NCBI GenBank assembly: GCA_031549605.1
Contig: JAVBPM010000027.1
Coordinates: 1,338 to 65,337, forward strand
DNA: 64,000 bases
DNA from: Oscillospiraceae bacterium
GTDB lineage: Bacteria > Bacillota > Clostridia > Oscillospirales > UBA929
Direction of reading: 5' to 3'
Shown: positions 22,385 to 56,917 of the stretch, piece by piece
Layout: each line of letters begins with the position of its first letter
Position numbering within the stretch: position 1 is the first letter of the stretch
Translations under genes and position numbers: made by a program
Notes under the pieces: generated by a model
What the model saw: the letters and a program-made list of their open reading frames with translations, nothing else
Told to the model about the DNA's origin: nothing
Database searches by the model: none

Positions 22385-22460
22385 GGGCGATTAGCTCAGC
22401 TGGGAGAGCGCGGCGTTCGCAATGCCGAGGTCAGGGGTTCGATCCCCCTATCGTCCACCA
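22385..22460 (+). tRNA. tRNA-Ala (anticodon CGC)
   Basis: A 76-nt cloverleaf folded by hand: acceptor GGGCGAT/ATCGTCC with the G3:U70 Ala identity pair, anticodon loop TTCGCAA, T-arm AGGGG-TTCGATC-CCCCT, and an encoded CCA. Confidence 0.95.
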
Positions 22461-36192: not shown

Positions 36193-36564
36193 TCACGTCC
36201 ACAGGCCGACGTCAAGGCAGCTTTTTTTGAGATGCTCCAGCGCCTTTTTCTCCAGCCGTGACACATAGCTGCGGCTGATGTTCAGTTCCTTGGCCACCTC
36301 GCGCTGCGTGCGCGGCTTGACGTTGTCCAGCCCATAACGCAGCGTAACAATCTCCAGCTCGCGACCGCATAGCAGCTGCTTAACCAGCGCATTCAGCTTT
36401 TGCTCGCGGTCAGTTTCTTCCACGCGTGCCAAATTGAAATCCTCCACGCTGATGGTGTTGCCGATTGGCAGCATGCCGCTGTCGTCCTCACTGTTAAAGC
36501 TCTCCTCAAAGGAGGTCAACTTAGGCGCGTGCGCCTCCTTGCGAAACTGCATGCGGAACTCATT
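36193..36564 (-). CDS. sigK: sigma-K gene, 3' segment (spoIIIC-like; regions 3-4)
   Basis: From codon AAT (36564-36562): NEFRMQFRKEAH...ELEIVTLRYGL...TQREVAKELNISRSYVSRLEKKALEHL, a sigma-70 region 4.2 HTH. The upstream part of the track ORF is an out-of-frame read of the recombinase gene. Confidence 0.85.
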   Translation of the reverse strand, partial: NEFRMQFRKEAHAPKLTSFEESFNSEDDSGMLPIGNTISVEDFNLARVEETDREQKLNALVKQLLCGRELEIVTLRYGLDNVKPRTQREVAKELNISRSYVSRLEKKALEHLKKSCLDVGLWT

Positions 36565-36573
36565 TGCAACCCT
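36555..36573. other. left attachment junction of the sigK intervening element (core TTT 36563-36565)
   Basis: SigK similarity ends at codon 36564-62. Aligning the two junctions gives G-N-AAA-N-G on the minus strand, with AAA shared. Confidence 0.6.
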
Positions 36574-38296: not shown

Positions 38297-38389
38297 TTCA
38301 TTCACCCTTGTCCAATGTGATGTATTAAGCTTAACACTATCGTTACGGCTTGACAAGGGTATTATATAGGAAAACAAGCGAATTCGCAA

Positions 38390-43482: not shown

Positions 43483-44181
43483 CTATAATGCTCGACGGAG
43501 CGAGAGTGCGTCTGAGAAGCGTTCTTCGGGGCTGGGTTGTACGCAGCGACGGATAATTTTTCCCAGCCGTCCGCGCGCACGCTGCTTGCTGTAATGCTCA
43601 CCGGTTAACATGACATTCATCAGCATGCCCAGCGCATATATGTCCGTCCGCTCGTCGGACTCCTTAAAACCGTATTGTTCCGGCGCAGCATATCCGGCCG
43701 TGCCAAGTAGCTGTGTATCCTTGCTTTGCGCTGGCTTCACCAGTCGACAGGCGTTGAAGTCAATCAGCTTAGTCATGCCGTTACAATCAACCATTACGTT
43801 CTCAGGTTTAATGTCTCGGTGGACGATACCCAGCGAGTGCAGCGCGGACAATGCATCGCAAAGCTGCTTGGACACCTGTCGTGTGCCCCGCTCGGTGTAG
43901 TGGCCCGTCTCCAGCACTTGGGCAACGGTACAGCCGTCTATGTATTCCTCCAGCACGGTAACGATGTTTTCACGCTGCACAACTTCGTAGATGCGCGGCA
44001 GGTGCGGGTGTGTGACGTTCAGTAAATGCCGATAGACTTCAGCGCTGCCCGTGAAGGTGCGCTTGACGATTGGCCAATGCAGCGTCTTGTGGCGAAGTAG
44101 CAGCACTTGAGACGAAGGCGTCTGCTTCAATGCCGTCACAAGCGTATATTGTTTATCTAAGGCGTCATTTAGCCAGTCCAT
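43483..44181 (-). CDS. stand-alone Ser/Thr protein kinase domain protein
   Basis: Start ATG 44181. Hanks motifs HRDIKPENVMV, DFN (DFG-like) and GTAGYAAPE. No sensor or TM region. Confidence 0.8.
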   Translation of the reverse strand: MDWLNDALDKQYTLVTALKQTPSSQVLLLRHKTLHWPIVKRTFTGSAEVYRHLLNVTHPHLPRIYEVVQRENIVTVLEEYIDGCTVAQVLETGHYTERGTRQVSKQLCDALSALHSLGIVHRDIKPENVMVDCNGMTKLIDFNACRLVKPAQSKDTQLLGTAGYAAPEQYGFKESDERTDIYALGMLMNVMLTGEHYSKQRARGRLGKIIRRCVQPSPEERFSDALSLRRAL

Positions 44182-44236
44182 CTTTTCACCCACTGTCGAT
44201 TCATGGTATACTGACATCATACTAGGAGGCGATGTA

Positions 44237-44659
44237 ATGGTCAAGAAGTCAACCGACGATTTGCTGGCAGAGTTGCAGGGGCAAAAACCGCTGGAGGCGT
44301 ACATCGCCGACAACCAGGACGCTTTCTATTCGAAGCAGCTGGCGCAAGTGCTGTGTCAGTTGGTGGAGGAAAAGCAGACAACCAAATATGAGGTCATCAA
44401 ACGTGCTGAGCTGACCGAGGTGTATGGCTATCAAATCTTTGCCGGGAAGCGGCTACCCTCGCGGGATAAGTTGCTCTGTTTGTGCATAGGGCTGGGTCTG
44501 TCAGTCGACGAAACCCAGCAACTGCTGAAGCAGGTGGGCATGGCGCCGTTGTATGCAAAGCTGAAGCGGGATAGTATTATTCTGTATGAGGTTGGCCACG
44601 GGCAGAATGTGGTGGCGATTAATGAGCGGTTGTATCTTGAAAATGAATTAACGTTATAA
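44237..44659 (+). CDS. HTH-domain protein (XRE-like)
   Basis: 140 aa. The segment KRAELTEVYGYQIFAGKRLPSRDKLLCLCIGLGLSVDETQQLL matches a common clostridial HTH family. Divergent from the kinase gene. Confidence 0.55.
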   Translation: MVKKSTDDLLAELQGQKPLEAYIADNQDAFYSKQLAQVLCQLVEEKQTTKYEVIKRAELTEVYGYQIFAGKRLPSRDKLLCLCIGLGLSVDETQQLLKQVGMAPLYAKLKRDSIILYEVGHGQNVVAINERLYLENELTL

Positions 44660-44724: not shown

Positions 44725-45453
44725 TTATTCATAGTCTTTAGACTCTACTTCAAAGCGCCTGAGGTCTTCCTGTTCTTCGGCGTCCAGTTGAGCCATTTTA
44801 TTGGAAACAGCTTCCATTCGTCTTCCCACCCGTTCGAATAGTGCAATAATATCATGTTCTTGATTCCTTGCAGCATAGCTATCTTTGTTCTTTTTATACA
44901 TTTCTTTGATAAGCTTCAAGACATCGCCAACGCAACTGTTCAGAGCATAGCCTAATAATAAATCGTTGTTCGCAAGCAAAGTGGCAAATTTGACATCAAT
45001 ATCACCATTGCTTTTGATTCTTGCCGAAGGTACAAATGACGTACTATAAGCGTATATTAGGTCGAAAAGTGCATCAGCAATTTCTTTGTTTTCTAATATT
45101 ACGTCCACCATGTCAAGACGGTGCTCGTTTTCTTTACGATTGACGGTAAGCCAGTTAATGGACTCATTTTTTAGACCTGTTTTGTCGTGTGCCTCAACAT
45201 TTTCAGGGGCAATACCAGTAAACAGCTCATCAATTGAAATGCCAAAAAATTTGGCGATGCAACTGAGATGGTACGCTGTGTACCTTGTGTCTCCATCCAA
45301 CAAGTTGTGGACAGTAGAGGGATCAACGCGTAAGTACGCTGCAAGATTGTTTTGTGCTATTCCGCCCCGTCTTAAATAACTGGATATAGTGTTGCTAATG
45401 GTTTTTTGTATTGCGGTGAGCTTGTCCTCGCGTTCAAGTAGACTGTCTTTCAT
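44725..45453 (-). CDS. XRE-family repressor-like protein
   Basis: N-terminal HTH (IAQNNLAAYLRVDPSTVHNLLDG) and a ~150-aa C-terminal domain. Divergent from the primase module, as for a phage cI. Confidence 0.65.
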   Translation of the reverse strand: MKDSLLEREDKLTAIQKTISNTISSYLRRGGIAQNNLAAYLRVDPSTVHNLLDGDTRYTAYHLSCIAKFFGISIDELFTGIAPENVEAHDKTGLKNESINWLTVNRKENEHRLDMVDVILENKEIADALFDLIYAYSTSFVPSARIKSNGDIDVKFATLLANNDLLLGYALNSCVGDVLKLIKEMYKKNKDSYAARNQEHDIIALFERVGRRMEAVSNKMAQLDAEEQEDLRRFEVESKDYE

Positions 45454-45593: not shown

Positions 45594-45770
45594 ATGGAAA
45601 ACGTTTATTTCTACGATGCAAAGCGCAACTGCGTAATTCCGCAGGTCATTAATCTTGGGGATCTGGGGGAGGATGAAAACCTATGGAAGTGGTTGAGGAT
45701 GGAAAGTGAGGCAATTATCAAGAGAGGCAGCAATGATAGTAATTGTCAGGGTGATTGCCATGAGGCGTGA
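45594..45770 (+). CDS. small hypothetical protein (58 aa)
   Basis: AGGAGG RBS before ATG 45594. Occupies the position of a cro/early gene. Confidence 0.35.
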   Translation: MENVYFYDAKRNCVIPQVINLGDLGEDENLWKWLRMESEAIIKRGSNDSNCQGDCHEA

Positions 45771-47133
45771 GACGTATCAGGATAATCCTGCAGTTTATGT
45801 CACAAAGGATGGGCGGGTTGTAGTTCTGCCACAAGAACGATACAAGCAGATAAAACAGGAGTACGACATCCGCAAATCGGACAAGGCGAACATCTGGGTC
45901 TATGAGAAATCGGGCGTTCATAGACTATATAGCGCATATGAAATGATGGCACTGATAAAAAGTACATTACCAGTAGAGTATCGCAGTGCCCATGATTGGA
46001 AAGCGGTTTACGATGAGTTGTTGACCGACAGGGCAAATGTCTCTGAAAGTGACTTCAATAATGATGAAAATATCGTCAATTTCCGAAACGGGGTTTTGGA
46101 CATTAGCACAGGGCAACTGTCACCCCATAACCCCAAGTACTTATCAACGATTCAGATTCCGTGCAATTACATACCATCCTCAACGTTGCAGGATTGCGCG
46201 ACTTTTAGCGCGTTTCTTGATCATCTCTGCGCCACTGATTGCGTGACAATTACTTTTTTGTTGGAGTTTTTAGGCGCAATTATTTCCAATGCAAAAGGAT
46301 GGCGTTTTAAGAAGATGCTACTGCTAGTCGGGGCAGGAAACACAGGGAAATCGGTTTTCCGAGAATTGGCAATGCATCTTGTGGGTTTGGAAAATTGTGT
46401 TTCTATTGATTTGAAGAAGCTTAATGAACGGTTTGGTACATCGGCACTGTACGGAAAACGTCTTGCTGGTAGTGGAGATATGGCATTTGTTGAATTGCCC
46501 GAGGTCAACATTTTAAAACAGTTGACAGGCGGAGATGAGTTGTTTGCAGAGTACAAGGGAAAAGATAGCTTTACGTTTCGATATGACGGGTTTATTTTTT
46601 GCAACTGCAATAAACTGCCTTACTTTCGATCCGACAGAGGAGCTCATGTTTACGAGCGGTTCTTAGTCGTTTGCTGTTCCAATGTAGTACCAGCGGAAGA
46701 GCGTGATCCCAAACTGCTTGACAAGCTTTTGGCTGAGAAAGACGCTATTGTGAGTGTGGCGATCAAAGAGTTTATGTCTGTCATTCAAAACGGGTACAGG
46801 TTTACCGAAAGTGAGGCTATGCAGATTGGCCGCGACTCGTATGAAATTGAGAACAACAGTCTTTTAACGTTTGTAAATGAGTGCTGCGAGCGGGGAGATA
46901 GTGTCATTAAGCGGTCAGAGTTTGGTAGGTATTACGCTAAATGGTGCAAAGCAAATTTTGTGCAAGCTGAACGGGCACGAGACATCGAACCACAGTTAGT
47001 GAGATTCTTTGGCATACAGTCGCATAAGCGAAATGGATACTATGTCTTCACTGGACTGGAAATTCGGATTGAAGTCGTTGATGAACTTGACGATGTGATG
47101 TATCCGGACAGTACGCGAAATCGTCGTAAATAG
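45733..47133 (+). CDS. phage/plasmid primase, P4-family (D5-like SF3 helicase C-terminal domain)
   Basis: Walker A LLLVGAGNTGKSVF and Walker B-like FIFCNCNKLP. Start at ATG 45733 (AGAGAGG RBS) preferred over 45706. Confidence 0.7.
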   Translation: MIVIVRVIAMRRETYQDNPAVYVTKDGRVVVLPQERYKQIKQEYDIRKSDKANIWVYEKSGVHRLYSAYEMMALIKSTLPVEYRSAHDWKAVYDELLTDRANVSESDFNNDENIVNFRNGVLDISTGQLSPHNPKYLSTIQIPCNYIPSSTLQDCATFSAFLDHLCATDCVTITFLLEFLGAIISNAKGWRFKKMLLLVGAGNTGKSVFRELAMHLVGLENCVSIDLKKLNERFGTSALYGKRLAGSGDMAFVELPEVNILKQLTGGDELFAEYKGKDSFTFRYDGFIFCNCNKLPYFRSDRGAHVYERFLVVCCSNVVPAEERDPKLLDKLLAEKDAIVSVAIKEFMSVIQNGYRFTESEAMQIGRDSYEIENNSLLTFVNECCERGDSVIKRSEFGRYYAKWCKANFVQAERARDIEPQLVRFFGIQSHKRNGYYVFTGLEIRIEVVDELDDVMYPDSTRNRRK

Positions 47134-47515: not shown

Positions 47516-47560
47516 AAGTGGGTGTAATACTAAGCTGACAGCTTAGTATTACACCCACTT
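47516..47560. repeat. perfect 22-bp-arm palindrome/hairpin
   Basis: aagtgggtgtaatactaagctg-a-cagcttagtattacacccactt. Sits at the left edge of the AT-rich island. Confidence 0.9.
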
Positions 47561-47618: not shown

Positions 47619-47647
47619 TTTTCATACCGAAATACATCGTATATAAT
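47619..47647 (+). promoter_or_regulatory. candidate outward promoter facing IR-L
   Basis: TTTTCA-17 nt-TATAAT, 76 nt upstream of IR-L. Confidence 0.35.
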
Positions 47648-47722
47648 AAATGGTAATTAGGTTACAGTTCTATGTGCAAAAGGGCTTGTAATTCTGGCAG
47701 TGCAAAATGAAGATTTAAAAGT

Positions 47723-47780
47723 CAATGCAGGATAATACCAGATTATCTATTGTTTACAGGTCAAATAATTTGTAATTATC
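47723..47780 (+). repeat. 58-bp inverted repeat, left copy (IR-L)
   Basis: caatgcaggataataccagattatctattgtttacaggtcaaataatttgtaattatc. Its reverse complement equals 52819-52876 exactly (58/58, checked base by base). Confidence 0.95.
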
Positions 47781-47795
47781 CTTATAAAAGAGAGG

Positions 47796-49475
47796 ATGTT
47801 AAGTTTGATATCACTTGGAATTAACATTGGACATGATCAGGGTGCCGCAGTTGTAAAAGACGGCATTTTGGTTGGGGCAATCGCTCAAGAAAGACTAAAT
47901 AGAGTAAAGCATTCTGCTTCAACAACATTGCCATTTATAGCTATAGATAATCTACTAGATTACTTGGAAATAGGTATTAACGAAGTAGATTGCATTGGGT
48001 TCTCTTCTACTGCTGTTAATATCAATGAATTAAATTCTTATGTTGCTGATAGTCTTACAAACTACTATGATATTAATGATCCACATATCATTCCTGTATC
48101 ACATCATCAAGCTCATGCAGAAAGTGCTTACTTTACTTCAAATTTTGATGAAGCAATAACGCTTATTGCTGATGGTGGCGGTGAAATGTTAGGCGTAAAG
48201 GAAGAAGCAGAAAGCATATTTTACTGCAGAAACGCAGAGGTTACATTAATGGAACAACGTTTGCAAAGTAATAATGTACATGCTTTTGCTCGTCCGCACA
48301 ATTATTTAATCCCGTTTATGAACAAAAAACAATTTAGTGAACAAATTAGCCTTGGTAAAAAATATGAACAGGTAACTAGTTTGCTATCTTTTGGCGCAAA
48401 TGGTGCTGGAAAGACGATGGGCCTTTCAGCCTATGGGAAAAGTTTAATTAGTACAAATGCAGTTCCTGTAACCGATCCATTGGCTTTCAATCTTGATTTT
48501 CAAGATATTTTGCAACCATATTATTCATTGTACGAGCATTCTGGGGAGAATTACTTTGATTTCATGAAAAAGCATCAAGCAGATATAGCGAGGACCTTAC
48601 AAGATTATACAGAAAATCAAGTATTAGAAATCATTGAATACATACTGTCAAAGTACAAAGTATCACAAATCTGTTTAGCCGGAGGGCTGTTTCTCAACTG
48701 TCCTATTAATCACAAAATTTTAGAAAAGTATCCACAAGTGTCATTGCATATCTGTCCTGCTGCAGGTGATGATGGACAGGCAATGGGAACTGCATTAGCA
48801 GCGTATAGAACAGTCTCTTCAGATCTATATCCGAATTCATCCTGCCTACCGTATCTTGGTATAAGTTATACAAATGCTCAAATAGAGCAAGCTATAAAAT
48901 CGCGAGGACTACATTATCACTATTATGATGATGTAAGTATTGCGAGTCTTGTAGCAGAAAAAATATATAATAACAAAATAATCGGATTTTTGCATGGGAG
49001 AAGTGAAATTGGACCAAGGTCATTGTGCCATAGGAGCATACTTGCTAATCCAACTGTACCAAATATGAAAGACTATATCAATGCAAAAGTAAAGCACAGA
49101 GAAAATTTTCGTCCATTTGCACCAGTGGTTGCTGCAGAAAAACAATTTGAATACTTTTCTTTATTACAAGAGTCGCCGTATATGCTCTTGGCAACTACTG
49201 TAAAAGATAAATTTGTAGAACAATTACCTGCAATAACCCACGTGGATGGAACTGCGAGAATTCAATCGGTTAAAGCCGAAGATGATCCATTTGTACACCG
49301 AATACTTATTGAATTTGAAAAACTCTCTGGATTTCCAGTATTACTAAATACTTCATTTAACGATTGTGGAGAGCCTATTGTAGAAACACCAAGTGATGCA
49401 ATAAAAACTTTTCTGACTACAGAAATAGATATTCTTGTTATGGAAAATTATATATTATTTAAAGATGAACAATAA
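47796..49475 (+). CDS. NodU/CmcH/TobZ-family carbamoyltransferase
   Basis: Motifs GINIGHDQGAA, HHQAHAESAYF, ICLAGGLFLNCPINHKI, FRPFAPVV, HVDGTARIQSV and LNTSFNDCGEPIV. The true start may be TTG 47805, because the SD AGAGAGGA abuts ATG 47796. Confidence 0.85.
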   Translation: MLSLISLGINIGHDQGAAVVKDGILVGAIAQERLNRVKHSASTTLPFIAIDNLLDYLEIGINEVDCIGFSSTAVNINELNSYVADSLTNYYDINDPHIIPVSHHQAHAESAYFTSNFDEAITLIADGGGEMLGVKEEAESIFYCRNAEVTLMEQRLQSNNVHAFARPHNYLIPFMNKKQFSEQISLGKKYEQVTSLLSFGANGAGKTMGLSAYGKSLISTNAVPVTDPLAFNLDFQDILQPYYSLYEHSGENYFDFMKKHQADIARTLQDYTENQVLEIIEYILSKYKVSQICLAGGLFLNCPINHKILEKYPQVSLHICPAAGDDGQAMGTALAAYRTVSSDLYPNSSCLPYLGISYTNAQIEQAIKSRGLHYHYYDDVSIASLVAEKIYNNKIIGFLHGRSEIGPRSLCHRSILANPTVPNMKDYINAKVKHRENFRPFAPVVAAEKQFEYFSLLQESPYMLLATTVKDKFVEQLPAITHVDGTARIQSVKAEDDPFVHRILIEFEKLSGFPVLLNTSFNDCGEPIVETPSDAIKTFLTTEIDILVMENYILFKDEQ

Positions 49476-49477
49476 AT

Positions 49478-52400
49478 TTACACACCAAAGGGTATATAAA
49501 AATCGGTAAAAGTATCGCGAACCGAGTATAGAATATCTTTACCTACAAATAACAATCTACCTTTTTTAACTGATTCATAGTTTTTCTTAAATACGTCTAT
49601 ATTTCGCTGGCAAGAGTAGAAGCAAGATTTGTTTTTATCACACTTGAAATCACAAGTCCCATTACTTCCGTAGTATTTAATTTCACTTAGGAACTGATAA
49701 ACTTCACTTTCCAATCCATATTCGCATAGAAAAATAGCATAATTTGTAAGCAAAATAATATTGTTATAAGTAAAATCAAGTGCTCCAAGAAAAAATTGAT
49801 CACACTGTCTCATATGATGAAGCATGGTCTGAAAGTATTTATAAATTGTTTCTGATGATGAACCGTCGCTGGCAGCGATTATTGCACGAAGGCAATATAA
49901 TGACGGCATCATTTTAGCTATCCCGTTTTGTATACTGTCGGATATTCCAGCGTCTATGTGCTTTTTTGCTTGTTCTCTTTCCTCAGTACTGTTTCCAATA
50001 TAATAAATCGCAGCTAAGAGGTAATGACTACGGATAATAGCTATCGGGTACTCTACTTCCATGGCTAATTCAAGAAGTCTTTGCCCTTCATTTTTAAAAT
50101 AATTTAGTTTATCAAATTTAGTAGAATCATTAACTATGTTTGCTGTTAAAATACCAAGATCATTGTGACAACTAATTCTTGGTGATACATCTGATGAAAG
50201 AAGCGCTTTTGCTTCATTCATCAAGGCAAGAGCCTCTTGAAAATCTCTATAAAATCTTATTTTAGCTGATAATATTTTACTTAATGTCAATAACTTTGCA
50301 TCTTGCAACCGTTCAGCAATCTTGTATGAAAGCTGATTATAAAGCATCGCTAATTCCTTATGGTTTTCTTGTATATACACGCTAGAGATCCGGTCAAAAA
50401 GATCAAAACGTGTTTCATCATTAAAAAGAGCTTCATCTTTACGCTCTTGTGCAAGAAGTTCCAACAATAGTTTTTTTGCTTGTGATATACGGTCTGATTG
50501 CATAAACAGATGTGCTTGCATTTGCATAGCTGTTAGATGTAATGGCATATCATTTGCATGATGTTCTTTTATTATTTCTAGTATCTTCTCTATGACAATA
50601 CCACCACGGGCAACAGATAAGCTGTGTAAAGCGATATACATACTAGCTAATAATGTGTTTCTTTGAAGATTCAAGTTATTATTTTTAGAAGCAATTTCAT
50701 AAATAGTCTCGTATGTTTCAAAATATTTAGGAGTTAAATTGCATGAAGAAATATTTTTTATGTTGCTAATTTCAGTAATGGCTATTTGTAATAAACTCTC
50801 GCTTCTGTGAAAGTCGCCAACATGAAAATAAATTACTGCTTTTTGTAAATCAGAATACTGCTCTAATAATTCATTGCAAGAAACAAGGAAATCAGCTACT
50901 TTCTCAATTGTATTTTTAGATTTAAGAATTTCTCTTATAAACAAGAAAATATTTTCATGATCAAAAGTGATGTTATCATTATGAGTTATCTTGAGAAAGT
51001 GCCTTTTGTATAAAATATTAATGGTTTCAAAATTCTCATCCCCAAAATACAAATTATAAATTCGTTTGGGAGCTTCAATTCCATATAAACCGAGTAAAAG
51101 CAAAAATAATTGCAAATCTGTTCCGTTTGTCAAATCTGCAATGTTATCAAATCTTGCTCTTATTAAGTCCTGAACAGAAGAAGGGATGTATAATTTCTTC
51201 GCAAAAGTTGTTACATTAGTTATTCCCACTGCATTTCTGTTCATCAAATACATTAATTTTGTCTCCAACATATATTCTATAAATTGGCACACATAAAATG
51301 GATTGTTTTCAGATGCTTTATGAATCTTATTTATTACATATTCAGGTGCTTCGATAATTATTGACCGAATCATATTTTTACACTCAACATCAGTTAACTT
51401 TTTAATTTTATAGTTATTAATATTTTCGTTTTTCTCGTTTTCTAGCCATGATAAATAAGTAAAATAACTCTGATTGTAAACGCTATAGTCGTCCCGACCT
51501 GCAGTAATAATAATAAAAGGAGTATAGAAATTACTTGTCGAGAATTTCTTCAACAATGAAAAAAGGCTTTTATCTGCATTATGTATATCCTCAATAACAA
51601 TAGCATATCGGTTAAAATGCATTGGAATATTCGTTAAATCTATTAGAGCTCTTAATTTGTATTGCGGGATGCTATCAGCAATATAAGAATTAAGCAGTTC
51701 TTCGGTAGATTTTGTCTCATGTTCCGTGCATATAAAGTGAAATATCTTAATTCCACTTTGAGAAATTTTTTTACTCGCTTCATCTAATATTCTTGTTTTT
51801 CCAATTCCGGCTTCTCCACGAAGGTTAATCATGTGGAAATTAGTATTATTTTGCCCCCTTGAAACAATACTACTTATTATTTCTTTGTGATAAGTGCCTA
51901 CAAGAGGTGTTTCAAAATCATAATCAACAAAACGACCATTGATTATAATTTTTTTTAAATTTTCATTCAGCATAACATCAACTAAAATATCATCAATACC
52001 ATCAAAATATTCTTTTGTTACTCCGATACATTTGCAAATGCTATTGCCAGCATCTAGAAAAACTTCAAACTGTGTTTCAGATAATAGCCAGTTTCGATCA
52101 GATTTAAGTTGGAATTTGCATATTTGGGGATTTTCCGAATAATTGCGAAAACGCAAATATAATTCTAAATATGGCAAACCATTTCTCTTGCCGTGATTAA
52201 GTTGATAATCAGCCGATAGTTCAAAATGTTCTAGAGGCAAAGCATAATTTCCGAAAAGGGCATTATGAAAATCTAAAAACTTTGCTAAAATAAATTGGTC
52301 TACTAGAAAAAATTCATATCCATTTTCTATTGCATTATGGTTGGCTTCGTAATGCGAAAATGGAACGATGGTTTGATTGGTAATTAAAATGAAATAATCA

Positions 52401-52744
52401 ATTCCGCTATGATTTGCAAGAAGTATATTCTTTGAAAACTTGTCAAGACCAATTTTATTATTATTTGAGCTTTTAAATTCTATGTAAATGCAAATACTGC
52501 TTTTACCCTTTAAATCAAACTTTTTGCCAAAAAGAGAAAAAGGTACTATTGATCTAATAATTAAATCCTTACCACTATCCCTTGTGCGAGGGGTTCGTTC
52601 AATTTTTAATTCTTTTTCATAATATTCAGCTAACGAATACTCAATCACTGATGACACATGCTCTTCAAATTCAAAGCCAGACATATTTAGGTCCCACTTT
52701 TGACTATTAATATTCGGCGTAATATAATTAACGCTACCTAGCAT
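49478..52744 (-). CDS. Mrr-like nuclease / STAND P-loop NTPase / TPR-like repeat protein (Avs-like architecture)
   Basis: GAGGGAG RBS. Residues ~20-160 carry a PD-(D/E)xK pattern (GFEFEEHV, DSGKDLII, IYIEFKS, GIDYFILITN). Walker A GEAGIGKT (residues 310-317) and Walker B AIVIEDIH. About 650 aa of helical repeats, then a C-terminal Cys cluster. Confidence 0.8.
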   Translation of the reverse strand: MLGSVNYITPNINSQKWDLNMSGFEFEEHVSSVIEYSLAEYYEKELKIERTPRTRDSGKDLIIRSIVPFSLFGKKFDLKGKSSICIYIEFKSSNNNKIGLDKFSKNILLANHSGIDYFILITNQTIVPFSHYEANHNAIENGYEFFLVDQFILAKFLDFHNALFGNYALPLEHFELSADYQLNHGKRNGLPYLELYLRFRNYSENPQICKFQLKSDRNWLLSETQFEVFLDAGNSICKCIGVTKEYFDGIDDILVDVMLNENLKKIIINGRFVDYDFETPLVGTYHKEIISSIVSRGQNNTNFHMINLRGEAGIGKTRILDEASKKISQSGIKIFHFICTEHETKSTEELLNSYIADSIPQYKLRALIDLTNIPMHFNRYAIVIEDIHNADKSLFSLLKKFSTSNFYTPFIIITAGRDDYSVYNQSYFTYLSWLENEKNENINNYKIKKLTDVECKNMIRSIIIEAPEYVINKIHKASENNPFYVCQFIEYMLETKLMYLMNRNAVGITNVTTFAKKLYIPSSVQDLIRARFDNIADLTNGTDLQLFLLLLGLYGIEAPKRIYNLYFGDENFETINILYKRHFLKITHNDNITFDHENIFLFIREILKSKNTIEKVADFLVSCNELLEQYSDLQKAVIYFHVGDFHRSESLLQIAITEISNIKNISSCNLTPKYFETYETIYEIASKNNNLNLQRNTLLASMYIALHSLSVARGGIVIEKILEIIKEHHANDMPLHLTAMQMQAHLFMQSDRISQAKKLLLELLAQERKDEALFNDETRFDLFDRISSVYIQENHKELAMLYNQLSYKIAERLQDAKLLTLSKILSAKIRFYRDFQEALALMNEAKALLSSDVSPRISCHNDLGILTANIVNDSTKFDKLNYFKNEGQRLLELAMEVEYPIAIIRSHYLLAAIYYIGNSTEEREQAKKHIDAGISDSIQNGIAKMMPSLYCLRAIIAASDGSSSETIYKYFQTMLHHMRQCDQFFLGALDFTYNNIILLTNYAIFLCEYGLESEVYQFLSEIKYYGSNGTCDFKCDKNKSCFYSCQRNIDVFKKNYESVKKGRLLFVGKDILYSVRDTFTDFYIPFGV

Positions 52745-52818
52745 ATAACTCCCTCTTTTTACATTAGTTGCAATAAACAGTTATCCATTATTTACTGTTT
52801 TTTCAATGATAAACAATA

Positions 52819-52876
52819 GATAATTACAAATTATTTGACCTGTAAACAATAGATAATCTGGTATTATCCTGCATTG
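52819..52876 (-). repeat. 58-bp inverted repeat, right copy (IR-R)
   Basis: Exact reverse complement of 47723-47780. Lies 75 bp upstream of the 1088-aa gene start and 44 bp from the recombinase stop. Confidence 0.95.
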
Positions 52877-52920
52877 GCTTAAACGTGAATAGTGACCCCA
52901 TGAATGAGGCCACTACTATT

Positions 52921-53841
52921 TTAAATAACTATTCGATTTCTAGGATGCTTTGTGTCTAATATCTCTTTTTGCTTTTTTAAACTCACATGTGTATATATCT
53001 GTGTCGTGGTAATCGAGCTATGTCCCAGAATTTGTTGTATATACCTGATATCAACACCTTCATCCAGTAATAGAGTTGCAAAAGAATGTCTAAACATATG
53101 TGGGGTTATATTAAGTGCAATTCCAGCTTGATTCGCATACTTTCGTATCATAAACCGTACAGATTGCTCAGATAGCCTGTTATTACAGCGGTTTAAATAA
53201 AATTGCTTTGCATTATTAACGTCTTTTTCTTCTCGAACTATACCATAATTATCTAACGCAGATAAAACCTCATCATTGCCAATTCTGATAATTCTCTCTT
53301 TCGCACCCTTTCCATAGATACAGGCGGTTTTTTCGTGGAAATTAATATCGCAACAATTTAATGAGCACAGCTCGGAAACACGCATGCCCGTTGCAAAGAG
53401 CAGTTCAAGAACGGCAATGTTACGAATTGTCATTCTCTTTTTATAATCTGTAGAACTGATTGACAATTCTGTATATGCGCATCTAAGGATGGCCTCAACA
53501 TCGGTCAATGATATAGTTCGTGGTAAAATCTTAGGCTCCTGAAACTTAGTTCTAACTTTAGCAAAATGGTCTTCATCAATTATATTTTCAAACTGTAAAT
53601 AATTAAAAAAAGCCTTTAGCGAAGCAATTTTGCGTTTAGCGCTTTTAGGCTTGTATTTTGTATGTAATGTAACAATATATGCATTAAGCACTTCTTTCAT
53701 TGAGCTGCTTTCGGACAGTTTTGCGTGCTGCCTAAATTGTTCAAGATCAATTCGGTATGCTTTAATTGTGGGCGCACTCAACTTCTTTTGATTTGCGCAA
53801 AAAGAAAGATAAGGACGGATTAACGATTCAGTAATTATCAC
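52921..53841 (-). CDS. tyrosine site-specific recombinase (XerC/XerD-like)
   Basis: GTG start after GGGGG. Core-binding N-terminal domain (APTIKAYRIDLEQF). Catalytic ATGMRVSEL, HMFRHSFAT and LGHSSITTTQIYTHV (R..HxxR..Y). Confidence 0.85.
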   Translation of the reverse strand: MIITESLIRPYLSFCANQKKLSAPTIKAYRIDLEQFRQHAKLSESSSMKEVLNAYIVTLHTKYKPKSAKRKIASLKAFFNYLQFENIIDEDHFAKVRTKFQEPKILPRTISLTDVEAILRCAYTELSISSTDYKKRMTIRNIAVLELLFATGMRVSELCSLNCCDINFHEKTACIYGKGAKERIIRIGNDEVLSALDNYGIVREEKDVNNAKQFYLNRCNNRLSEQSVRFMIRKYANQAGIALNITPHMFRHSFATLLLDEGVDIRYIQQILGHSSITTTQIYTHVSLKKQKEILDTKHPRNRIVI

Positions 53842-54004: not shown

Positions 54005-54072
54005 AGACATGTTAAATATAAAAAATGCAGAAATTATTACGTTATCTTCTACGTAAAAACGGGAGGTGTCAC

Positions 54073-55374
54073 TTGAAACGCATATTAAGCGACCAGCTAT
54101 TGTCTTGGAAAACGCAGAGCGACCGAAAACCGCTTATTCTAAAAGGCGTACGTCAGTGCGGTAAAACGTATTTGCTCAAGGAGTTTGGTGAGGCGCACTA
54201 CGACGACGTTGCCTACTTTAATTTTGAGGGCAACGACGCCTTGCAAGCGCGGTTTGATGTTGATTTGGATGTTGACCGAATCATTGCTGAACTGGGTATC
54301 CTGCGACGCAAAGCCATCGAGCCGGATAAAACGCTGATTATCTTTGATGAGATTCAGTTTTGTAACCGTGCTTTGACGGCGTTGAAATACTTCTGCGAGA
54401 ACGCGCCACAGTTTCATATTGTCTGTGCCGGGTCTCTTTTGGGCGTGGCGCTTAGTAAGCCGTTGTCATTTCCCGTGGGTAAGGTTGATTTTCTCACATT
54501 GCGGCCGATGAACTTCTATGAGTTTTTGCTGGCAAACGGCGAAGATTTACTGTGTGATTATTTGAACAAGCTAACCACCGGCGAAAAGGTGTCGGCATTG
54601 TTTGCCGAAAAGCTGGAGCAGTTGCTTCGGACGTATTATATCACTGGCGGTATGCCGGAGGCCGTGGATATATGGCTAAAGACGCGTGACATCGGCAAGC
54701 TGGAGGAGGTGCAGCAACGCATCCTTGACAGTTATGAGTTGGACTTTGCTAAGCACGCACCGAGTAAAGACTTCCCGAAACTGTCGGCGATTTGGCGGTC
54801 AATTCCTGAACAATTGGCCAAAGAGAACAGCAAGTTTATTTTCAGTCAGGTCAAGAAAGGCCTCCGCGCCAAAGACTTAGAGGATGCCTTGGAGTGGCTT
54901 CTGAGTGCCGGACTGGCCTTTAAGGTTATGAAAATTGAAAAGCCATTTTTGCCGCTGTCTGCCTATGCTGACGCGACGTTCTTTAAGCTCTACATGTCTG
55001 ACGTGGGCTTGCTTCGAAAGATGTCAAAGCTACCTGCAGAGGCGTTACTGGCGAAGAGTGAGCTATACACTGAGTTCAAGGGCGCATTGGCTGAGAATTA
55101 TGTGCTGACTGAGTTGGTCAACTTGCAGGGCGACACGCCGTATTACTGGAAATCGGGAAATATAGCCGAGGTCGATTTTGTCGTTCAGCAGGACATGGAC
55201 ATCATTCCTATTGAGGTCAAATCCGAGCGGAACGAACGCGCGCGGTCGCTGTCGGAGTATCGGAAAAAGTATAACCCACGTGTGGCGGTGATTACGTCGA
55301 TGAGTAATGTGTCTGGCGGCGAGGTTAGGAATGTGCCGTTGTATATGTTGTGGAGGTTGGTGGCGTATGTATAG
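54073..55374 (+). CDS. AAA-family ATPase with DUF4143-type C-terminal domain
   Basis: TTG 54073, 6 nt after GGGAGG, gives the family-typical N-terminus (L)KRILSDQLLSWKTQSDRKPLILKGVRQCGKTY (Walker A). Walker B LIIFDEIQ. Confidence 0.7.
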   Translation: MKRILSDQLLSWKTQSDRKPLILKGVRQCGKTYLLKEFGEAHYDDVAYFNFEGNDALQARFDVDLDVDRIIAELGILRRKAIEPDKTLIIFDEIQFCNRALTALKYFCENAPQFHIVCAGSLLGVALSKPLSFPVGKVDFLTLRPMNFYEFLLANGEDLLCDYLNKLTTGEKVSALFAEKLEQLLRTYYITGGMPEAVDIWLKTRDIGKLEEVQQRILDSYELDFAKHAPSKDFPKLSAIWRSIPEQLAKENSKFIFSQVKKGLRAKDLEDALEWLLSAGLAFKVMKIEKPFLPLSAYADATFFKLYMSDVGLLRKMSKLPAEALLAKSELYTEFKGALAENYVLTELVNLQGDTPYYWKSGNIAEVDFVVQQDMDIIPIEVKSERNERARSLSEYRKKYNPRVAVITSMSNVSGGEVRNVPLYMLWRLVAYV

Positions 55375-56326: not shown

Positions 56327-56818
56327 TTATATCTCGAGATACTGCCTACTTATCCCAACATAGTTCTCCTTAAGTAATGTAGTGAATCCTGTCTCCCACC
56401 TTTTCACTGTGCCATGATGCACGCCCAAAACTCTGGCCAACGCAGGTCGCGACAGCCTATTAGCCTTCCGCAATTCTCGAATCTGCTCAGCTTGTCCGTC
56501 GTACAGAAACCTATGGTACGAATCGAGTAAATCAACCACAGCCACCCCAAACAACGCCGCAGCAACCCCCAGCTTGTCCAACGGATACACCGAAATACCA
56601 CGCTCCCAACGTAGATAGGTGCCGGTGTCGATACCAATAGCCGCTGCCACATCTACCTGCCTCAACCTACACTGCCTCCGATAATAACGAAGCTTGTCCG
56701 CCACGGACGCATCAGCCTCCGGCACAACCACGACCTCCACAGCGCCGCTGTATTGTTCCTGTTTGATGACATGGACATACAGCGGCGCATATTTTGTTTT
56801 GCCCTTAACCGTACACAT
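56327..56818 (-). CDS. XRE-family regulator with two HTH domains
   Basis: Two HTH_3-like motifs (RLRQVDVAAAIGIDTGTYLRWERG; RLSRPALARVLGVHHGTVKRWETG). The start is uncertain: ATG 56818 or 56911, neither with a clear SD. Confidence 0.55.
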   Translation of the reverse strand: MCTVKGKTKYAPLYVHVIKQEQYSGAVEVVVVPEADASVADKLRYYRRQCRLRQVDVAAAIGIDTGTYLRWERGISVYPLDKLGVAAALFGVAVVDLLDSYHRFLYDGQAEQIRELRKANRLSRPALARVLGVHHGTVKRWETGFTTLLKENYVGISRQYLEI

Positions 56819-56917
56819 ATAAATAGCGAGCGTATTGCTCACCGCCCACGCCAACCGCCACGGCGATAAATGGGGTGCGTGGTGCGCTGTGTCGCGTTCC
56901 AAAGTTCCCATTTTGAT

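What the first reader, a model, noticed from the sequence alone, without database searches (positions are those of the whole stretch)
47723..52876. Perfect 58-bp inverted repeats bracket a 5.0-kb segment: putative gene-swapping inverton
**Seen.** 47723-47780 is the exact reverse complement of 52819-52876 (58/58). The 5038 bp between them (47781-52818) contain only the two convergent genes, each with its own RBS. A tyrosine recombinase gene sits immediately outside IR-R.

**Established.** Tyrosine-recombinase genes next to inverted repeats drive phase-variable inversions, as in fim, the C. difficile switches and hsdS shufflons.

**Inference.**
- Flipping would exchange which gene faces the candidate external promoter (47619-47647) and which lies downstream of the recombinase gene.
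- That would make it a switch between, or re-balancing of, the two genes.

**Alternative.** The repeat may simply be a duplicated promoter/operator. A TTGTTT-18-TGtAATTAT promoter-like element lies inside it.
Basis: partly seen in the sequence, partly recalled or inferred. Interest (0 to 1): 0.8.

Follow-up and report, generated by a model that had tools for sequence, protein, structure and literature searches.

The report
Flippable, swappable two-gene defence cassette
The 58-bp inverted repeats are real recombination sites for the neighbouring Xer-like recombinase, which flips (and in relatives also swaps) a two-gene immune-type cassette, and this design is widespread in gut, oral and other bacteria but appears not to have been described.

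Summary
**Observation: confirmed.** The arms are 58/58 perfect (62 nt with one mismatch) and lie 5038 bp apart. They enclose two convergent genes, and a tyrosine recombinase gene sits 40 nt outside the right arm.

**Interpretation: largely supported, by comparison rather than directly.**
- Each arm carries a dif-like core, GATAAY-N5-RTTATC. In 64 kb this motif occurs only in the two arms.
- Every complete locus of the same gene pair that I recovered (39-69% identical) is bounded by an inverted pair of this core.
- Both orientations exist in nature. Two metagenome contigs carry the same flanks with the cassette inverted (99.95% identity). Short-read contigs from many samples end exactly at the sites.
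- The recombinase co-varies with the cassette (51-56% identity).

**Wider pattern.**
- Orthologous recombinases in 80 metagenome loci, and in plasmids of cultured Streptococcus salivarius and Aliarcobacter, sit beside the same site pairs.
- These pairs enclose other convergent, promoterless gene pairs: STAND NTPase plus a transferase or ligase, or Thoeris ThsA/ThsB.
- Identical flanks and sites can hold unrelated cassettes.

**Likely mechanism.** Site-specific inversion changes which gene joins a single external promoter. The expression consequence is inferred. Inversion of this particular copy was not observed.

**Classification.** New variant of a known kind.

The parts
47719..47780 (.). IR-L, left arm of the inverted repeat (perfect from 47723)
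   Evidence: 62 nt, 98%; sequence
52819..52880 (.). IR-R, right arm of the inverted repeat (perfect to 52876)
   Evidence: sequence
47731..47747 (+). Core recombination site L, GATAAT-ACCAG-ATTATC: two 6-nt inverted arms around a non-palindromic centre
   Evidence: Exact motif match. The same motif bounds every related cassette. Position counts.
52852..52868 (+). Core recombination site R, GATAAT-CTGGT-ATTATC: the exact reverse complement of site L
47764..47780 (+). Second, degenerate core-like site (AATAATTTGTAATTATC) at the inner end of IR-L. The repeat ends exactly at its last base. Its mirror copy is 52819-52835.
   Evidence: One-mismatch match. The mismatch is at a position that is G in 71/71 aligned sites, so the site may be a relic. 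Tandem double sites recur in L086, L128, L081 and L006.
47796..49475 (+). O-carbamoyltransferase (TobZ/GdmN/NodU type). Faces the left flank. Probable true start is TTG 47805.
   Evidence: Pfam Carbam_trans_N/C; PDB GdmN and TobZ at E about 1e-62 to 1e-65; convergent partner conserved in relatives
49478..52744 (-). NLR/Avs-like protein of 1088 aa: N-terminal Mrr-type PD-(D/E)xK nuclease, STAND P-loop NTPase, helical-repeat sensor, C-terminal Cys cluster. Faces the recombinase flank.
   Evidence: Pfam Mrr_cat and AAA_16; invariant D56, E89, K91 and the GxxGxGK P-loop motif at residues 310-316 in 19 homologues; AlphaFold2 model pLDDT 83; Foldseek 6mfv, Avs3, Avs4 and plant NLRs
52921..53841 (-). 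Xer-like tyrosine recombinase, the proposed invertase
   Evidence: Phage_integrase 4e-41. XerD model scores 251 bits, below its 329.6-bit cutoff. Catalytic R154, H248, R251, H274 and Y283 conserved. Orthologues lie beside related cassettes.
52888..52917 (-). 13-bp hairpin between the recombinase stop codon and IR-R: a likely terminator or insulator that makes this flank the low-expression side
   Evidence: dG -18.1 kcal/mol, z -3.7. Hairpins at the same position in L067, L068, L086, L115, L123, L136 and L024, read by eye.
47619..47647 (+). Candidate external promoter (TTTTCA-17-TATAAT) reading into IR-L
   Evidence: 10/12 match. Consensus match only; the region as a whole is not enriched for such matches.
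47516..47560 (.). 22-bp perfect palindrome (21 pairs in the predicted RNA fold) upstream of the candidate promoter: a likely bidirectional terminator insulating the left flank
   Evidence: I2; dG -36 and -39 kcal/mol, z about -7.9; terminator-like on the minus strand

Best explanation
The segment 47731-52868 is a programmed invertible cassette.

**Recombination (inferred from the anatomy and from relatives).**
- The adjacent Xer-like tyrosine recombinase (52921-53841) would bind the two 6-nt arms of each 17-bp core, GATAAT-ACCAG-ATTATC.
- It would exchange strands across the non-palindromic centre.
- Because the two cores are inverted, the product is inversion of the 5.1-kb cassette, not deletion.

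**Expression (inferred).**
- The two cassette genes are convergent and their stop codons are 2 nt apart. In this window any promoter of their own lying inside the cassette could only be the weak 9/12 element within the repeat, so they most likely depend on transcription entering through the sites.
- The left flank has a terminator-like palindrome followed by a promoter-like element.
- The right flank is the recombinase gene followed by a hairpin.
- In the assembled orientation the carbamoyltransferase therefore faces the promoter, and the NLR-like nuclease/STAND gene faces the quiet flank. Inversion would swap them.

**Family context.** The element belongs to a widespread family in which the same recombinase and site pair bounds other two-gene, mostly immune-type cassettes. 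In that family whole cassettes are also replaced between identical sites, which resembles recombinase-mediated cassette exchange.

**Shown:** the repeat, the sites, conservation of the architecture, both orientations and cassette replacement in relatives.
**Inferred:** catalysis by this recombinase, inversion of this copy, and the effect on expression.
For: 1. **Repeat and anatomy** are confirmed.
2. **Core motif.**
   - It occurs only in the arms within the window.
   - It has 98 occurrences in 1.01 Mb of recombinase-orthologue loci against 0.4 in shuffles, and 0 in 575 kb of unrelated loci.
3. **The same gene pair** is bounded by an inverted pair of the core in L006, L013, L022, L024, L025/26, L028 and L029. 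The perfect repeat there is as short as 20 nt.
4. **Both orientations in nature.**
   - L025 and L026 have both flanks reverse-complemented while the 5138-bp cassette is collinear, at 99.93-99.98% identity. All four junction classes are present.
   - L013 vs L014 and L001/3 vs L002/4 show the same cassette end joined to different flanks.
   - Logan contigs end exactly at the outer edges of 20-26-nt repeats, which is shorter than k = 31. L023 is reported from 7 samples.
   - The k = 31 behaviour is checked by L187, which ends exactly 30 nt into the window's perfect repeat.
5. **Recombinase.** Orthologues of 51-56% identity lie beside the pair in L002 and L024, and the catalytic residues are intact.
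6. **Generality.**
   - 33 of 80 orthologue loci have an exact inverted site pair, and 52 of 80 have a site within 600 nt of the gene.
   - At 66 of 70 cassette ends (35 loci, including the window and the gene-pair relatives) an ORF of at least 100 aa starts 2-121 nt inside the site, median 35.
   - The convergent genes mostly overlap or abut at their 3' ends.
7. **Promoters (34 loci, including the window).**
   - The better flank scores a mean 9.76 against 8.43 for the control; the weaker flank scores 7.35 against 7.08.
   - 14 of 34 loci have exactly one flank above the 95th percentile, and none has both.
   - Hairpins follow the recombinase gene in the window and in seven relatives (read by eye).
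8. **Cassette replacement at identical sites and flanks.**
   - L109/L113 vs L111, and L124 vs L125.
   - Five S. salivarius/S. equinus megaplasmids hold three different cassettes.
   - Two Aliarcobacter plasmids hold different cassettes.
Against: - **This copy was never seen inverted.**
  - Only one assembly exists.
  - The one extra contig breaks for a trivial reason: the repeat is longer than k.
- **Promoter calls are weak evidence.** They are consensus matches in AT-rich DNA. The region holds 24 matches against 33 expected.
- **The window does not show the one-flank signal.**
  - In the flank test the window scored 8 and 7, which is background.
  - Its candidate promoter lies 84 nt from the site, outside the 90-nt test window.
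- **Either/or expression is hard to reconcile with some cargo.** Thoeris ThsA and ThsB must act together, yet they form the cassette in L114, L115, L118 and L138.
- **Exceptions to the one-promoter rule.**
  - L138 shows similar promoter-like elements on both flanks.
  - 20 of 34 loci have no flank above the threshold.
- **No local recombinase in one inverting locus.** L025/L026 invert with no recombinase gene found within 10 kb, so an enzyme acting in trans has to be assumed.
- **The window's repeat may hold a weak internal promoter.** It is 38 nt longer than the core and contains a 9/12 promoter-like match.
Confidence: 0.72

Rival explanations
1. Cassette-exchange platform, with inversion as a by-product. 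The inverted sites exist mainly so that two-gene cassettes can be swapped in and out without being lost by excision, as in recombinase-mediated cassette exchange. Flipping is then an unavoidable side reaction. Convergent promoterless genes let both genes be read from the two flanks in either orientation. This is not exclusive with the best explanation.
For: - Clean cassette replacement between identical sites and flanks appears in metagenomes.
- It also appears in complete plasmids of isolates, where homology breaks within about 10 nt of the sites.
- The cargo is very diverse.
- Two-component cargo such as Thoeris needs both genes at once.
- In loci where the recombinase gene reads towards the site, its own transcription could feed the adjacent cassette gene.
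Against: - Usually only one flank has a strong promoter-like element, and none of 34 loci has two.
- Several loci have hairpins between the recombinase gene and the site.
- The 3' ends of the convergent genes overlap and leave no room for a terminator, so simultaneous transcription from both sides would collide.
- The central 5 nt differ between most loci, which limits exchange to partners with the same centre.
- Contig breaks in many samples suggest that inversion is frequent within samples.
Confidence: 0.3
2. Duplicated promoter or operator. On this reading the repeat is a regulatory sequence copied in front of both genes for co-regulation, and it does not recombine.
For: - A weak promoter-like element lies inside the window's repeat (TTTACA-18-TATCCT, 9/12).
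- The 15-nt unit ATTATCTATTGTTTA occurs twice on the right-hand side (I22).
Against: - In relatives the repeat is only the 17-20-bp palindromic core.
- Start codons can lie 2-20 nt inside the site, and in L024 the RBS lies inside the repeat itself.
- Both orientations and cassette swaps are observed exactly at these sites.
- Treating the site's GATAAT as a -10 element finds no matching -35 (mean 2.7 of 6).
Confidence: 0.04
3. Inversion by general homologous (RecA-type) recombination between the repeats, with the neighbouring recombinase unrelated to it.
For: A 58-bp perfect repeat is long enough for occasional RecA-dependent exchange (my own knowledge).
Against: - Relatives invert with repeats of 20-37 nt. 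The repeat of the inverting pair L025/L026 is 37 nt at 92% identity.
- The conserved palindromic core, with an invariant GATAA / TTATC, would have no reason to exist.
- The recombinase is syntenic with the sites and co-varies with them.
Confidence: 0.04
4. The repeats are the terminal inverted repeats of a transposon, or of a non-autonomous element moved by a transposase.
For: - The cassette has a much lower GC content (32%) than its surroundings (45%) and the host (about 60%).
- Cassettes occur in many genomic contexts.
Against: - There is no transposase inside the cassette.
- There is no target-site duplication; the flanks TTTAAAAGTC and GGCTTAAACG only continue the imperfect inverted repeat.
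- The recombinase lies outside the repeats.
- Replacement happens within a fixed docking locus rather than by insertion at new sites.
Confidence: 0.03

Closest known systems
Mycoplasma agalactiae vpma / M. bovis vsp switching by the adjacent Xer1 (Mbr) tyrosine recombinase (PMC2268961); likewise the Ureaplasma mba locus (PMC3047005, PMC3599477)
   Same: - A Xer-like recombinase gene lies beside the locus.
- The recombination sites lie in the 5' untranslated region of promoterless genes.
[quoted passage not shown]
   Different: - There the cargo is a family of paralogous surface lipoprotein genes with several sites. Here there are exactly two unrelated, convergent genes of immune type in a compact cassette.
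- The hosts differ and the site sequence is unrelated to what I could compare.
- Orthology to Xer1 was not tested.
- Whole cassettes are also replaced here.
Invertible G, C and P segments of phage Mu, P1 and e14/Qin (Gin, Cin, Pin; PinQ in PMC12529663)
   Same: - A segment of a few kb lies between short inverted repeats.
- The recombinase gene lies just outside one repeat.
- Convergent alternative gene sets inside are read from outside.

(The Mu and P1 details are from my own knowledge.)
   Different: - Those use serine invertases with Fis and an enhancer.
- They swap variants of one protein (tail fibre C-termini) fused to a constant part.
- Here a tyrosine recombinase acts on dif-like sites and whole unrelated genes are swapped.
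pdif / dif modules of Acinetobacter plasmids (PMC9947245, PMC13141974)
   Same: - Discrete gene modules are bounded by inverted Xer-type sites.
- Modules are found inverted and shuffled between related replicons.
- The window's core resembles the centre of dif (ATAA-N-TTAT).
   Different: - dif modules use 28-bp XerC/XerD sites and the host's XerC/D, with no dedicated recombinase (my own knowledge).
- Here a 17-bp symmetric core pairs with a dedicated adjacent recombinase.
- The gene architecture is fixed: convergent and promoterless.
- The hosts are Bacillota and Campylobacterota.
Type I restriction hsdS 'epigenetic invertons' (PMC7672463; survey in PMC9881135)
   Same: A tyrosine recombinase lies next to a defence locus, and inverted repeats and inversion create heterogeneity in a defence function.
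   Different: There the repeats lie inside coding sequences and reshuffle domains of one protein. Here the sites lie upstream of whole genes.
Integron cassettes
   Same: A platform recombinase with promoterless, exchangeable cassettes read from a platform promoter (my own knowledge).
   Different: - Integrons use IntI, folded single-stranded attC sites and direct arrays.
- They have no inversion and no convergent pairs.
- The NCBIfam integron-integrase model scores only 113.9 bits against a 265-bit cutoff.
Avs / bacterial NLR-like STAND defence proteins (for the 1088-aa cargo gene)
   Same: - N-terminal nuclease effector, STAND NTPase and helical-repeat sensor.
- Foldseek hits to Avs3 (8.8e-10) and Avs4 (1.6e-8).
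   Different: - No PADLOC defence model matches.
- It is obligatorily paired with a carbamoyltransferase, which is not a feature of the Avs systems I know of (my own knowledge).

Membership tests
Programmed inversion switch (inverton) driven by a tyrosine recombinase | A pair of inverted repeats bounds the segment | tested here: met
   58/58 perfect, 62 nt at 98%
Programmed inversion switch (inverton) driven by a tyrosine recombinase | A site-specific recombinase gene with intact catalytic residues lies nearby | tested here: met
   Phage_integrase 4e-41. R154, H248, R251, H274 and Y283 are conserved in three orthologues. The gene lies 40 nt from IR-R.
Programmed inversion switch (inverton) driven by a tyrosine recombinase | Both orientations coexist in populations | tested here: inconclusive
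   Met for homologous loci: L025/L026, L013/L014 and L001-L004, plus contig breaks at repeats shorter than k. Not observable for this copy.
Programmed inversion switch (inverton) driven by a tyrosine recombinase | Inversion changes expression or coding | not testable with these tools
   Only inferred, from promoterless genes abutting the sites and one-sided promoter-like elements
Xer1/vpma-type expression-site switching | Recombination sites lie in the 5' UTR of each switchable, promoterless gene | tested here: met
   ORFs start 2-121 nt inside the site at 66 of 70 cassette ends, median 35. In the window the values from the core-site end are 48 and 107 nt.
Xer1/vpma-type expression-site switching | A single active promoter serves the locus | tested here: inconclusive
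   14 of 34 loci have exactly one strong flank and none has two. In the window there is one 10/12 candidate on the left and a hairpin on the right. These are predictions only.
Xer1/vpma-type expression-site switching | The cargo is a family of paralogous surface-antigen genes | tested here: not met
   The cargo is two unrelated genes, a carbamoyltransferase and a STAND/nuclease protein
pdif (dif) modules | The module is bounded by inverted Xer-type sites, and the same docking positions hold different modules | tested here: met
   Inverted dif-like cores. Cassette replacement in relatives.
pdif (dif) modules | Sites are 28-bp XerC-6-XerD sites used by the host's chromosomal XerC/XerD, with no dedicated recombinase | tested here: not met
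   The core is a 17-bp 6-5-6 symmetric site. A dedicated recombinase is adjacent and scores below the XerC and XerD cutoffs.
Integron | IntI-type integrase and attC-bounded cassettes in a direct array | tested here: not met
   The integron-integrase model scores 113.9 bits against a 265-bit cutoff. The sites are inverted short palindromes.
Serine-invertase G/C/P segments | A serine (resolvase-family) invertase | tested here: not met
   The adjacent enzyme is a tyrosine recombinase. The only serine recombinase in the window (36560-38389) is a large integrase type at the edge of the island.
Avs (antiviral STAND) proteins, for the cargo gene | Effector, STAND NTPase and repeat-sensor architecture | tested here: met
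   Pfam Mrr_cat and AAA_16; AlphaFold2 model; Foldseek Avs3, Avs4 and 6mfv
Avs (antiviral STAND) proteins, for the cargo gene | Sequence membership in a described Avs family, and anti-phage activity | tested here: not met
   No PADLOC hit at E <= 0.01. Activity is not testable here.

The most novel reading that the evidence does not exclude
**Proposed reading.** A dedicated Xer-like recombinase and a 17-bp dif-like site pair form a natural 'flip-and-swap' docking platform for two-gene immune modules. It is spread across Bacillota and Campylobacterota, on islands, conjugative elements, prophage-like contigs and plasmids.

**What it would do.**
- Inversion would give mutually exclusive, or re-weighted, expression of the two partners. 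Examples are an NLR-like sensor against a small-molecule transferase, or ThsA against ThsB.
- Double recombination at the same sites would exchange whole modules between replicons.

**Two further implications.**
- It would add a third mode of cassette-based defence-gene turnover beside integrons and mobile-element hotspots.
- It would define a set of uncharacterised 'STAND plus transferase/ligase' immune pairs. The partners seen are carbamoyl-, glycosyl- and pyruvyl-transferases, ATP-grasp enzymes and an aminotransferase.
Probability: 0.45. Interest if true: 0.9.

Novelty: new variant of a known kind. Interest (0 to 1): 0.8.

Why it matters
**If the reading holds:**
- It gives a function to recombinase genes that sit beside defence genes and are often dismissed as prophage markers (as PMC12529663 notes).
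- It shows that complete two-gene immune systems, not only promoters or specificity subunits, are under programmed inversion in gut and oral commensals.
- It reveals a cassette-exchange route for defence genes that works on the same principle as engineered recombinase-mediated cassette exchange.

**Practical consequences:**
- **Search handle.** An orthologous recombinase plus an inverted GATAAY-N5-RTTATC pair is a simple, specific signature for finding new candidate immune modules.
- **Assembly artefact explained.** Many of these loci fragment into cassette-sized contigs of about 5 kb in short-read assemblies.
- **Testable in culture.** Cultured carriers make it directly testable: S. salivarius megaplasmids and A. 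cryaerophilus ATCC 43158.
- **Possible tool.** The 17-bp site and its 306-aa recombinase could become a compact tool for inversion or cassette exchange.

Tried and rejected
- **Known defence system?** PADLOC gave no hit for either cassette gene of the window. Hits appeared only for the neighbouring DUF4143 ATPase (PDC-S01) and, in relatives, for Thoeris.
- **The window's own proteins in public assemblies.**
  - The 1088-aa and 559-aa proteins are not on record.
  - The recombinase is on one 1.3-kb Logan contig, which stops 30 nt into the repeat. That is the trivial break for a repeat longer than k = 31 and says nothing about orientation.
- **Genome-contig scan with the STAND alignment.** It returned only two full-length relatives (a Lachnospiraceae genome and an uncultured Mollicutes genome) plus distant P-loop matches.
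- **Is the site's GATAAT the -10 of a split promoter?** Rejected. The -35 match at the right spacing is at background level, mean 2.7 of 6.
- **Internal promoter in the window's repeat.** Only a 9/12 match. It is not excluded, but it is not needed either.
- **Transposon reading.** There is no target duplication and no transposase.
- **L091.** It has the same site centre as the window, but its downstream region looks degraded and was uninformative.
- **Literature.** Ten full-text searches found no description of this system. Three papers searched for key terms gave the same result.
  - I searched combinations such as carbamoyltransferase, STAND or Thoeris with inversion or invertible.
  - This is absence in the held library, not proof that it is unpublished.
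- **Sequence search of the STAND profile against PDB.** Only weak P-loop matches, ZAR1 at 3e-3. Fold comparison was needed to place it.

Full report
**1. The observation**

- The repeat finder reports arms 47719-47780 and 52819-52880: 62 nt, 98% complementary, with 5038 nt between them.
- Between the arms there are only two long ORFs, and they are convergent. Their stop codons are 2 nt apart.
  - 47796-49475 (+), 559 aa
  - 49478-52744 (-), 1088 aa
- A 306-aa tyrosine recombinase gene, 52921-53841 (-), ends 40 nt outside IR-R and points towards it.
  - Pfam Phage_integrase scores 4e-41.
  - The best NCBIfam model is XerD at 251 bits, below its 329.6-bit cutoff.
- The cassette and the recombinase gene have 30-37% GC.
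  - They lie inside an island of 43-47% GC, in a host of about 60% GC.
  - The island runs from about 36.5 to 57.3 kb. It carries a large serine recombinase, a P4-type primase, a Ser/Thr kinase, HTH regulators and a DUF4143 ATPase.

**2. What the two genes are**

- **The 559-aa protein** is an O-carbamoyltransferase of the TobZ/GdmN/NodU type.
  - Pfam Carbam_trans_C scores 6e-66.
  - PDB GdmN scores 1e-64 and TobZ 2e-62.
- **The 1088-aa protein** has four parts.
  - An N-terminal Mrr-type PD-(D/E)xK nuclease, with D56, E89 and K91 invariant in 19 homologues.
  - A P-loop STAND NTPase with the Walker A motif GEAGIGKTR.
  - A long helical-repeat region.
  - A conserved C-terminal cysteine cluster.
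- An AlphaFold2 model (pLDDT 83) matches a STAND-TPR protein (6mfv, 1.6e-12). It also matches Avs3 (8.8e-10), Avs4 (1.6e-8), SAMD9 and plant NLRs.
- So this protein works like an Avs/NLR-type immune sensor with a nuclease effector. No PADLOC model matches either gene.

**3. The repeat is a recombination site, not just a repeat**

- Homologues of the 1088-aa protein (73 full-length, 30-69% identical) keep the convergent carbamoyltransferase partner.
- Every locus with both ends available has an inverted repeat around the pair: 20 nt in L022, 26 in L013, 32 in L006, 37 in L025 and 46 in L024.
- All of these repeats share one core, GATAAY-N5-RTTATC. It consists of two 6-nt inverted arms around a non-palindromic centre. 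This is the layout of a tyrosine-recombinase core site, and it recalls the centre of dif.
- In the window the exact motif occurs twice, at 47731 and 52852, once in each arm. With one mismatch allowed it occurs twice more, at the inner ends of the arms. The expectation is 0.27.
- The window's 58-bp repeat is therefore an unusually long version made of two tandem core-like sites. The inner one has A where 71 of 71 aligned sites have G, so it may be a relic.

**4. Both orientations exist in nature**

- **Full reciprocal inversion.** L025 and L026 are two Hadza gut metagenome contigs that each span the cassette and both flanks.
  - The flanks are reverse-complemented while the 5138-bp cassette is collinear, at 99.93-99.98% identity.
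  - A junction-class analysis recovers all four junctions.
  - Both record names end in '2317', which may mean the same subject. That is only a reading of the names.
- **Partial cases.** L013 vs L014 and L001/L003 vs L002/L004 show the same cassette end, 100% identical, joined to two different flanks.
- **Contig breaks at the sites.**
  - About 25 of the 73 homologue clusters have a longest contig of 5.0-5.4 kb.
  - The Logan contigs I fetched end exactly at the outer edges of the repeats, even where the repeat is only 20 nt (L023) or 26 nt (L016-19). L023 is reported from 7 samples.
  - Logan uses a 31-mer graph (my own knowledge). This is corroborated here: L187 stops exactly 30 nt into the window's perfect repeat.
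  - A repeat shorter than k cannot break such a graph unless two different junctions are present in the same sample.

**5. The recombinase belongs to the system, and the system is general**

- The recombinases beside the pair in L024 and L002 are 56% and 51% identical to the window's. The catalytic R, H-x-x-R, H and Y residues are conserved.
- A scan of metagenome contigs with their alignment returned 80 loci with orthologues of 35-56% identity.
  - 52 of the 80 loci have a core site within 600 nt of the gene.
  - 33 have an exact inverted pair enclosing 0.8-6.7 kb.
  - Many short contigs end at the site.
- The motif occurs 98 times in that 1.01 Mb, against 0.4 in shuffles. It occurs 0 times in 575 kb of unrelated loci.
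- The cargo is almost never the window's pair, but the architecture is the same.
  - The genes are convergent.
  - An ORF of at least 100 aa starts 2-121 nt (median 35) inside the site at 66 of 70 cassette ends. These 70 ends come from 35 loci, including the window and the gene-pair relatives.
  - The 3' ends overlap or abut.
- Cargo seen:
  - STAND-like AAA_16/AAA_22 and TPR proteins of 800-1134 aa. Their partners are GT4 (including the 'GT4-conflict' family), GT2 and ATP-grasp or D-Ala-D-Ala-ligase-like enzymes. One further cassette (L109) carries a pyruvyl transferase, a GT2 and an uncharacterised 436-aa protein.
  - Complete Thoeris systems in L114, L115, L118 and L138. ThsA scores E = 6.6e-182 and is paired with a TIR protein.
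- Orthologues also occur on about ten IMG/VR viral contigs.
- They also occur on plasmids of cultured bacteria.
  - Five S. salivarius/S. equinus megaplasmids.
  - Three Aliarcobacter plasmids, each with an inverted site pair around a convergent cassette.
  - In two of the Aliarcobacter plasmids the outermost G and C of the motif are changed, giving AATAAT-AGGAT-ATTATA.

**6. Cassettes are also replaced**

- L109/L113 and L111 share both flanks (83% and 95% identity) and the same sites, but hold unrelated 3.4-kb cassettes. Homology ends at the sites. L124 and L125 behave in the same way.
- The five streptococcal megaplasmids have identical sites (GATAATAAATTGTTATC / GATAACAATTTATTATC) and homologous flanks.
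  - They hold three different convergent pairs: FPP synthase plus a hypothetical protein; a hypothetical protein plus a methyltransferase; an aminotransferase plus a 759-aa TPR protein.
  - Homology stops about 10 nt past each site.
- Two Aliarcobacter plasmids share the recombinase on one side and DUF4172/AAA genes on the other, with different cassettes between the same repeats.
- This is what double recombination at two inverted sites would produce. It is the principle of engineered recombinase-mediated cassette exchange (inference).

**7. How expression probably depends on orientation**

- In L022 and L024 the start codons lie 5-23 nt inside the core site. In L024 the RBS is inside the repeat itself. 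Transcription must therefore enter from outside.
- I scored the 90 nt outside each site for sigma-70-type promoters, using cassette interiors as the control. The 34 loci scored include the window.
  - The better flank averages 9.76 against 8.43 for the control.
  - The weaker flank averages 7.35 against 7.08.
  - 14 of 34 loci have exactly one flank above the 95th percentile, and none has both.
- In loci where the recombinase gene reads towards the site, a hairpin often separates them. I read this by eye in L067, L068, L086, L115, L123, L136 and L024.
- The window's flanks would fit this pattern, although in the flank test itself the window scored at background (8 and 7), because its candidate promoter lies outside the 90-nt test window.
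  - **Right flank:** a 13-bp hairpin (dG -18.1 kcal/mol, z -3.7) lies between the recombinase stop codon and IR-R, and there is no good promoter match.
  - **Left flank:** a 22-bp perfect palindrome (dG -36 and -39 kcal/mol, z about -7.9) is followed by TTTTCA-17-TATAAT at 47619-47647, a 10/12 match.
- As assembled, the carbamoyltransferase would therefore be on the expressed side and the NLR-like gene on the quiet side. Inversion would reverse this.
- With no room for a terminator between the genes, transcription of one gene would run antisense over the other, which would reinforce exclusivity (inference).

**8. Caveats**

- Promoter matches in AT-rich DNA are weak evidence. The region holds 24 matches against 33 expected.
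- 20 of 34 loci show no strong flank, and L138 has similar elements on both flanks.
- Either/or expression is hard to square with Thoeris, whose two proteins act together. In 4 of 4 Thoeris cassettes ThsA faces the better-scoring flank (by eye). The switch may therefore change stoichiometry, or turn the system off as a whole, rather than choose between alternatives.
- L025/L026 invert without a recombinase gene within 10 kb.
- Inversion of the window's own copy was not observed.

**9. Comparison with what is known**

- **Closest by mechanism:** the Xer1/vpma (Mbr/vsp) switches of mycoplasmas. There an adjacent Xer-like recombinase inverts DNA at sites in the 5' UTRs and links silent genes to a unique promoter (PMC2268961).
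- **Closest by layout:** the serine-invertase G, C and P segments.
- **Closest by modularity:** Acinetobacter dif modules (PMC9947245, PMC13141974) and integrons.
- The element is not a member of any of these. The cargo, the site, the recombinase class or the dependence on host Xer proteins differs in each case (see the membership table).
- The literature searches and paper look-ups found no description of this recombinase/site/cassette family or of the STAND-carbamoyltransferase pair.

**10. Verdict**

- The inverton interpretation is well supported by comparative evidence.
- The finding opens onto a larger, apparently undescribed family of invertible and exchangeable two-gene immune cassettes.
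- I classify it as a new variant of a known kind, of high interest. Recombinase dependence and the expression logic remain to be shown experimentally.

Noticed in passing
window 36560-57300: The cassette sits in an integrated element of about 20 kb with 43-47% GC, in a host of about 60% GC. The element carries a large serine recombinase (36560-38389), several zinc-ribbon proteins, a Ser/Thr kinase (43483-44313), an HTH repressor-like gene (44725-45453), a P4-type primase (45706-47133) and HTH genes at 56327-56911. Host genes resume at 57475 with a Na/Pi cotransporter.
   Followed up: partly
window 54025-55374: A DUF4143/AAA_14 ATPase lies divergent from the recombinase gene. It matches the PADLOC candidate defence family PDC-S01 at 1.4e-173. 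A protein with the same domains also lies beside the recombinase in L024 (7090-8301), so it may be a conserved neighbour.
   Followed up: partly
window 47516-47560: A 22-bp perfect palindrome with a 1-nt centre (RNA dG -36 to -39 kcal/mol, z about -7.9) lies just left of the candidate promoter. It is probably a bidirectional terminator, but a protein-binding or attachment site is not excluded.
   Followed up: partly
window 52805-52868 (minus strand): On the STAND-gene side the 15-nt unit ATTATCTATTGTTTA occurs twice, 33 nt apart. One copy spans the inner edge of the repeat. This suggests that the long repeat arose by a local duplication or by a past recombination between two sites.
   Followed up: no
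L028 12184-12620: A third core site (12604) has the same centre as the cassette's sites. It is followed by a fragment encoding an N-terminal Mrr-like domain (45% identical to residues 1-114 of the window's protein). It lies 7.5 kb from the cassette, beyond conjugation genes (LytTR, DUF5697, DUF6100, TraG/VirD4). This could be a relic of an earlier cassette or part of a multi-site arrangement.
   Followed up: no
L025 9478-9602 and 15091-15215: A 126-nt direct repeat (91% identical) lies on both sides of the invertible cassette, outside the sites, within a polysaccharide-synthesis locus (Wzy, GT2, ABC transporter, RmlD). Its role is unknown; a duplicated promoter or an old insertion scar are possibilities.
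   Followed up: no
L013 5477-6325 (and L016-L019): In one branch of the family the invertible segment also carries a Zeta-toxin-domain gene upstream of the carbamoyltransferase, which makes the cassette 6.2 kb. A third core site at L013 7608 bounds the neighbouring 1.2-kb segment, and a contig also breaks there (L014 starts at it).
   Followed up: partly
L086 5353/5387 and 12015/12049; L128 11059-11111 (second motif GATAATTAGTAGTTATC 36 nt outside the site at 11095); L081 13785/13849; L006 6702/6750: Tandem double core sites with two different centres in one arm recur, as in the window. Two heterospecific site pairs around one cassette resemble engineered two-site designs. Their natural role is unknown.
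   Followed up: no
L180 9936-9952 and 13756-13772 (A. cryaerophilus ATCC 43158 plasmid): The inner arm of the site here reads ATTATG, so the ATG start codon of the YbaK-like cassette gene lies inside the recombination site itself.
   Followed up: no
L179, L181-L184 (S. salivarius / S. equinus megaplasmids): The docking locus always lies next to a pezAT toxin-antitoxin pair on the recombinase side. The same plasmid family carries three different cassettes. These are complete genomes of cultured strains and are suitable for experiments.
   Followed up: partly
window 22385-22460: A single tRNA-Ala (CGC) gene lies far from the island, so it is not its integration site.
   Followed up: no
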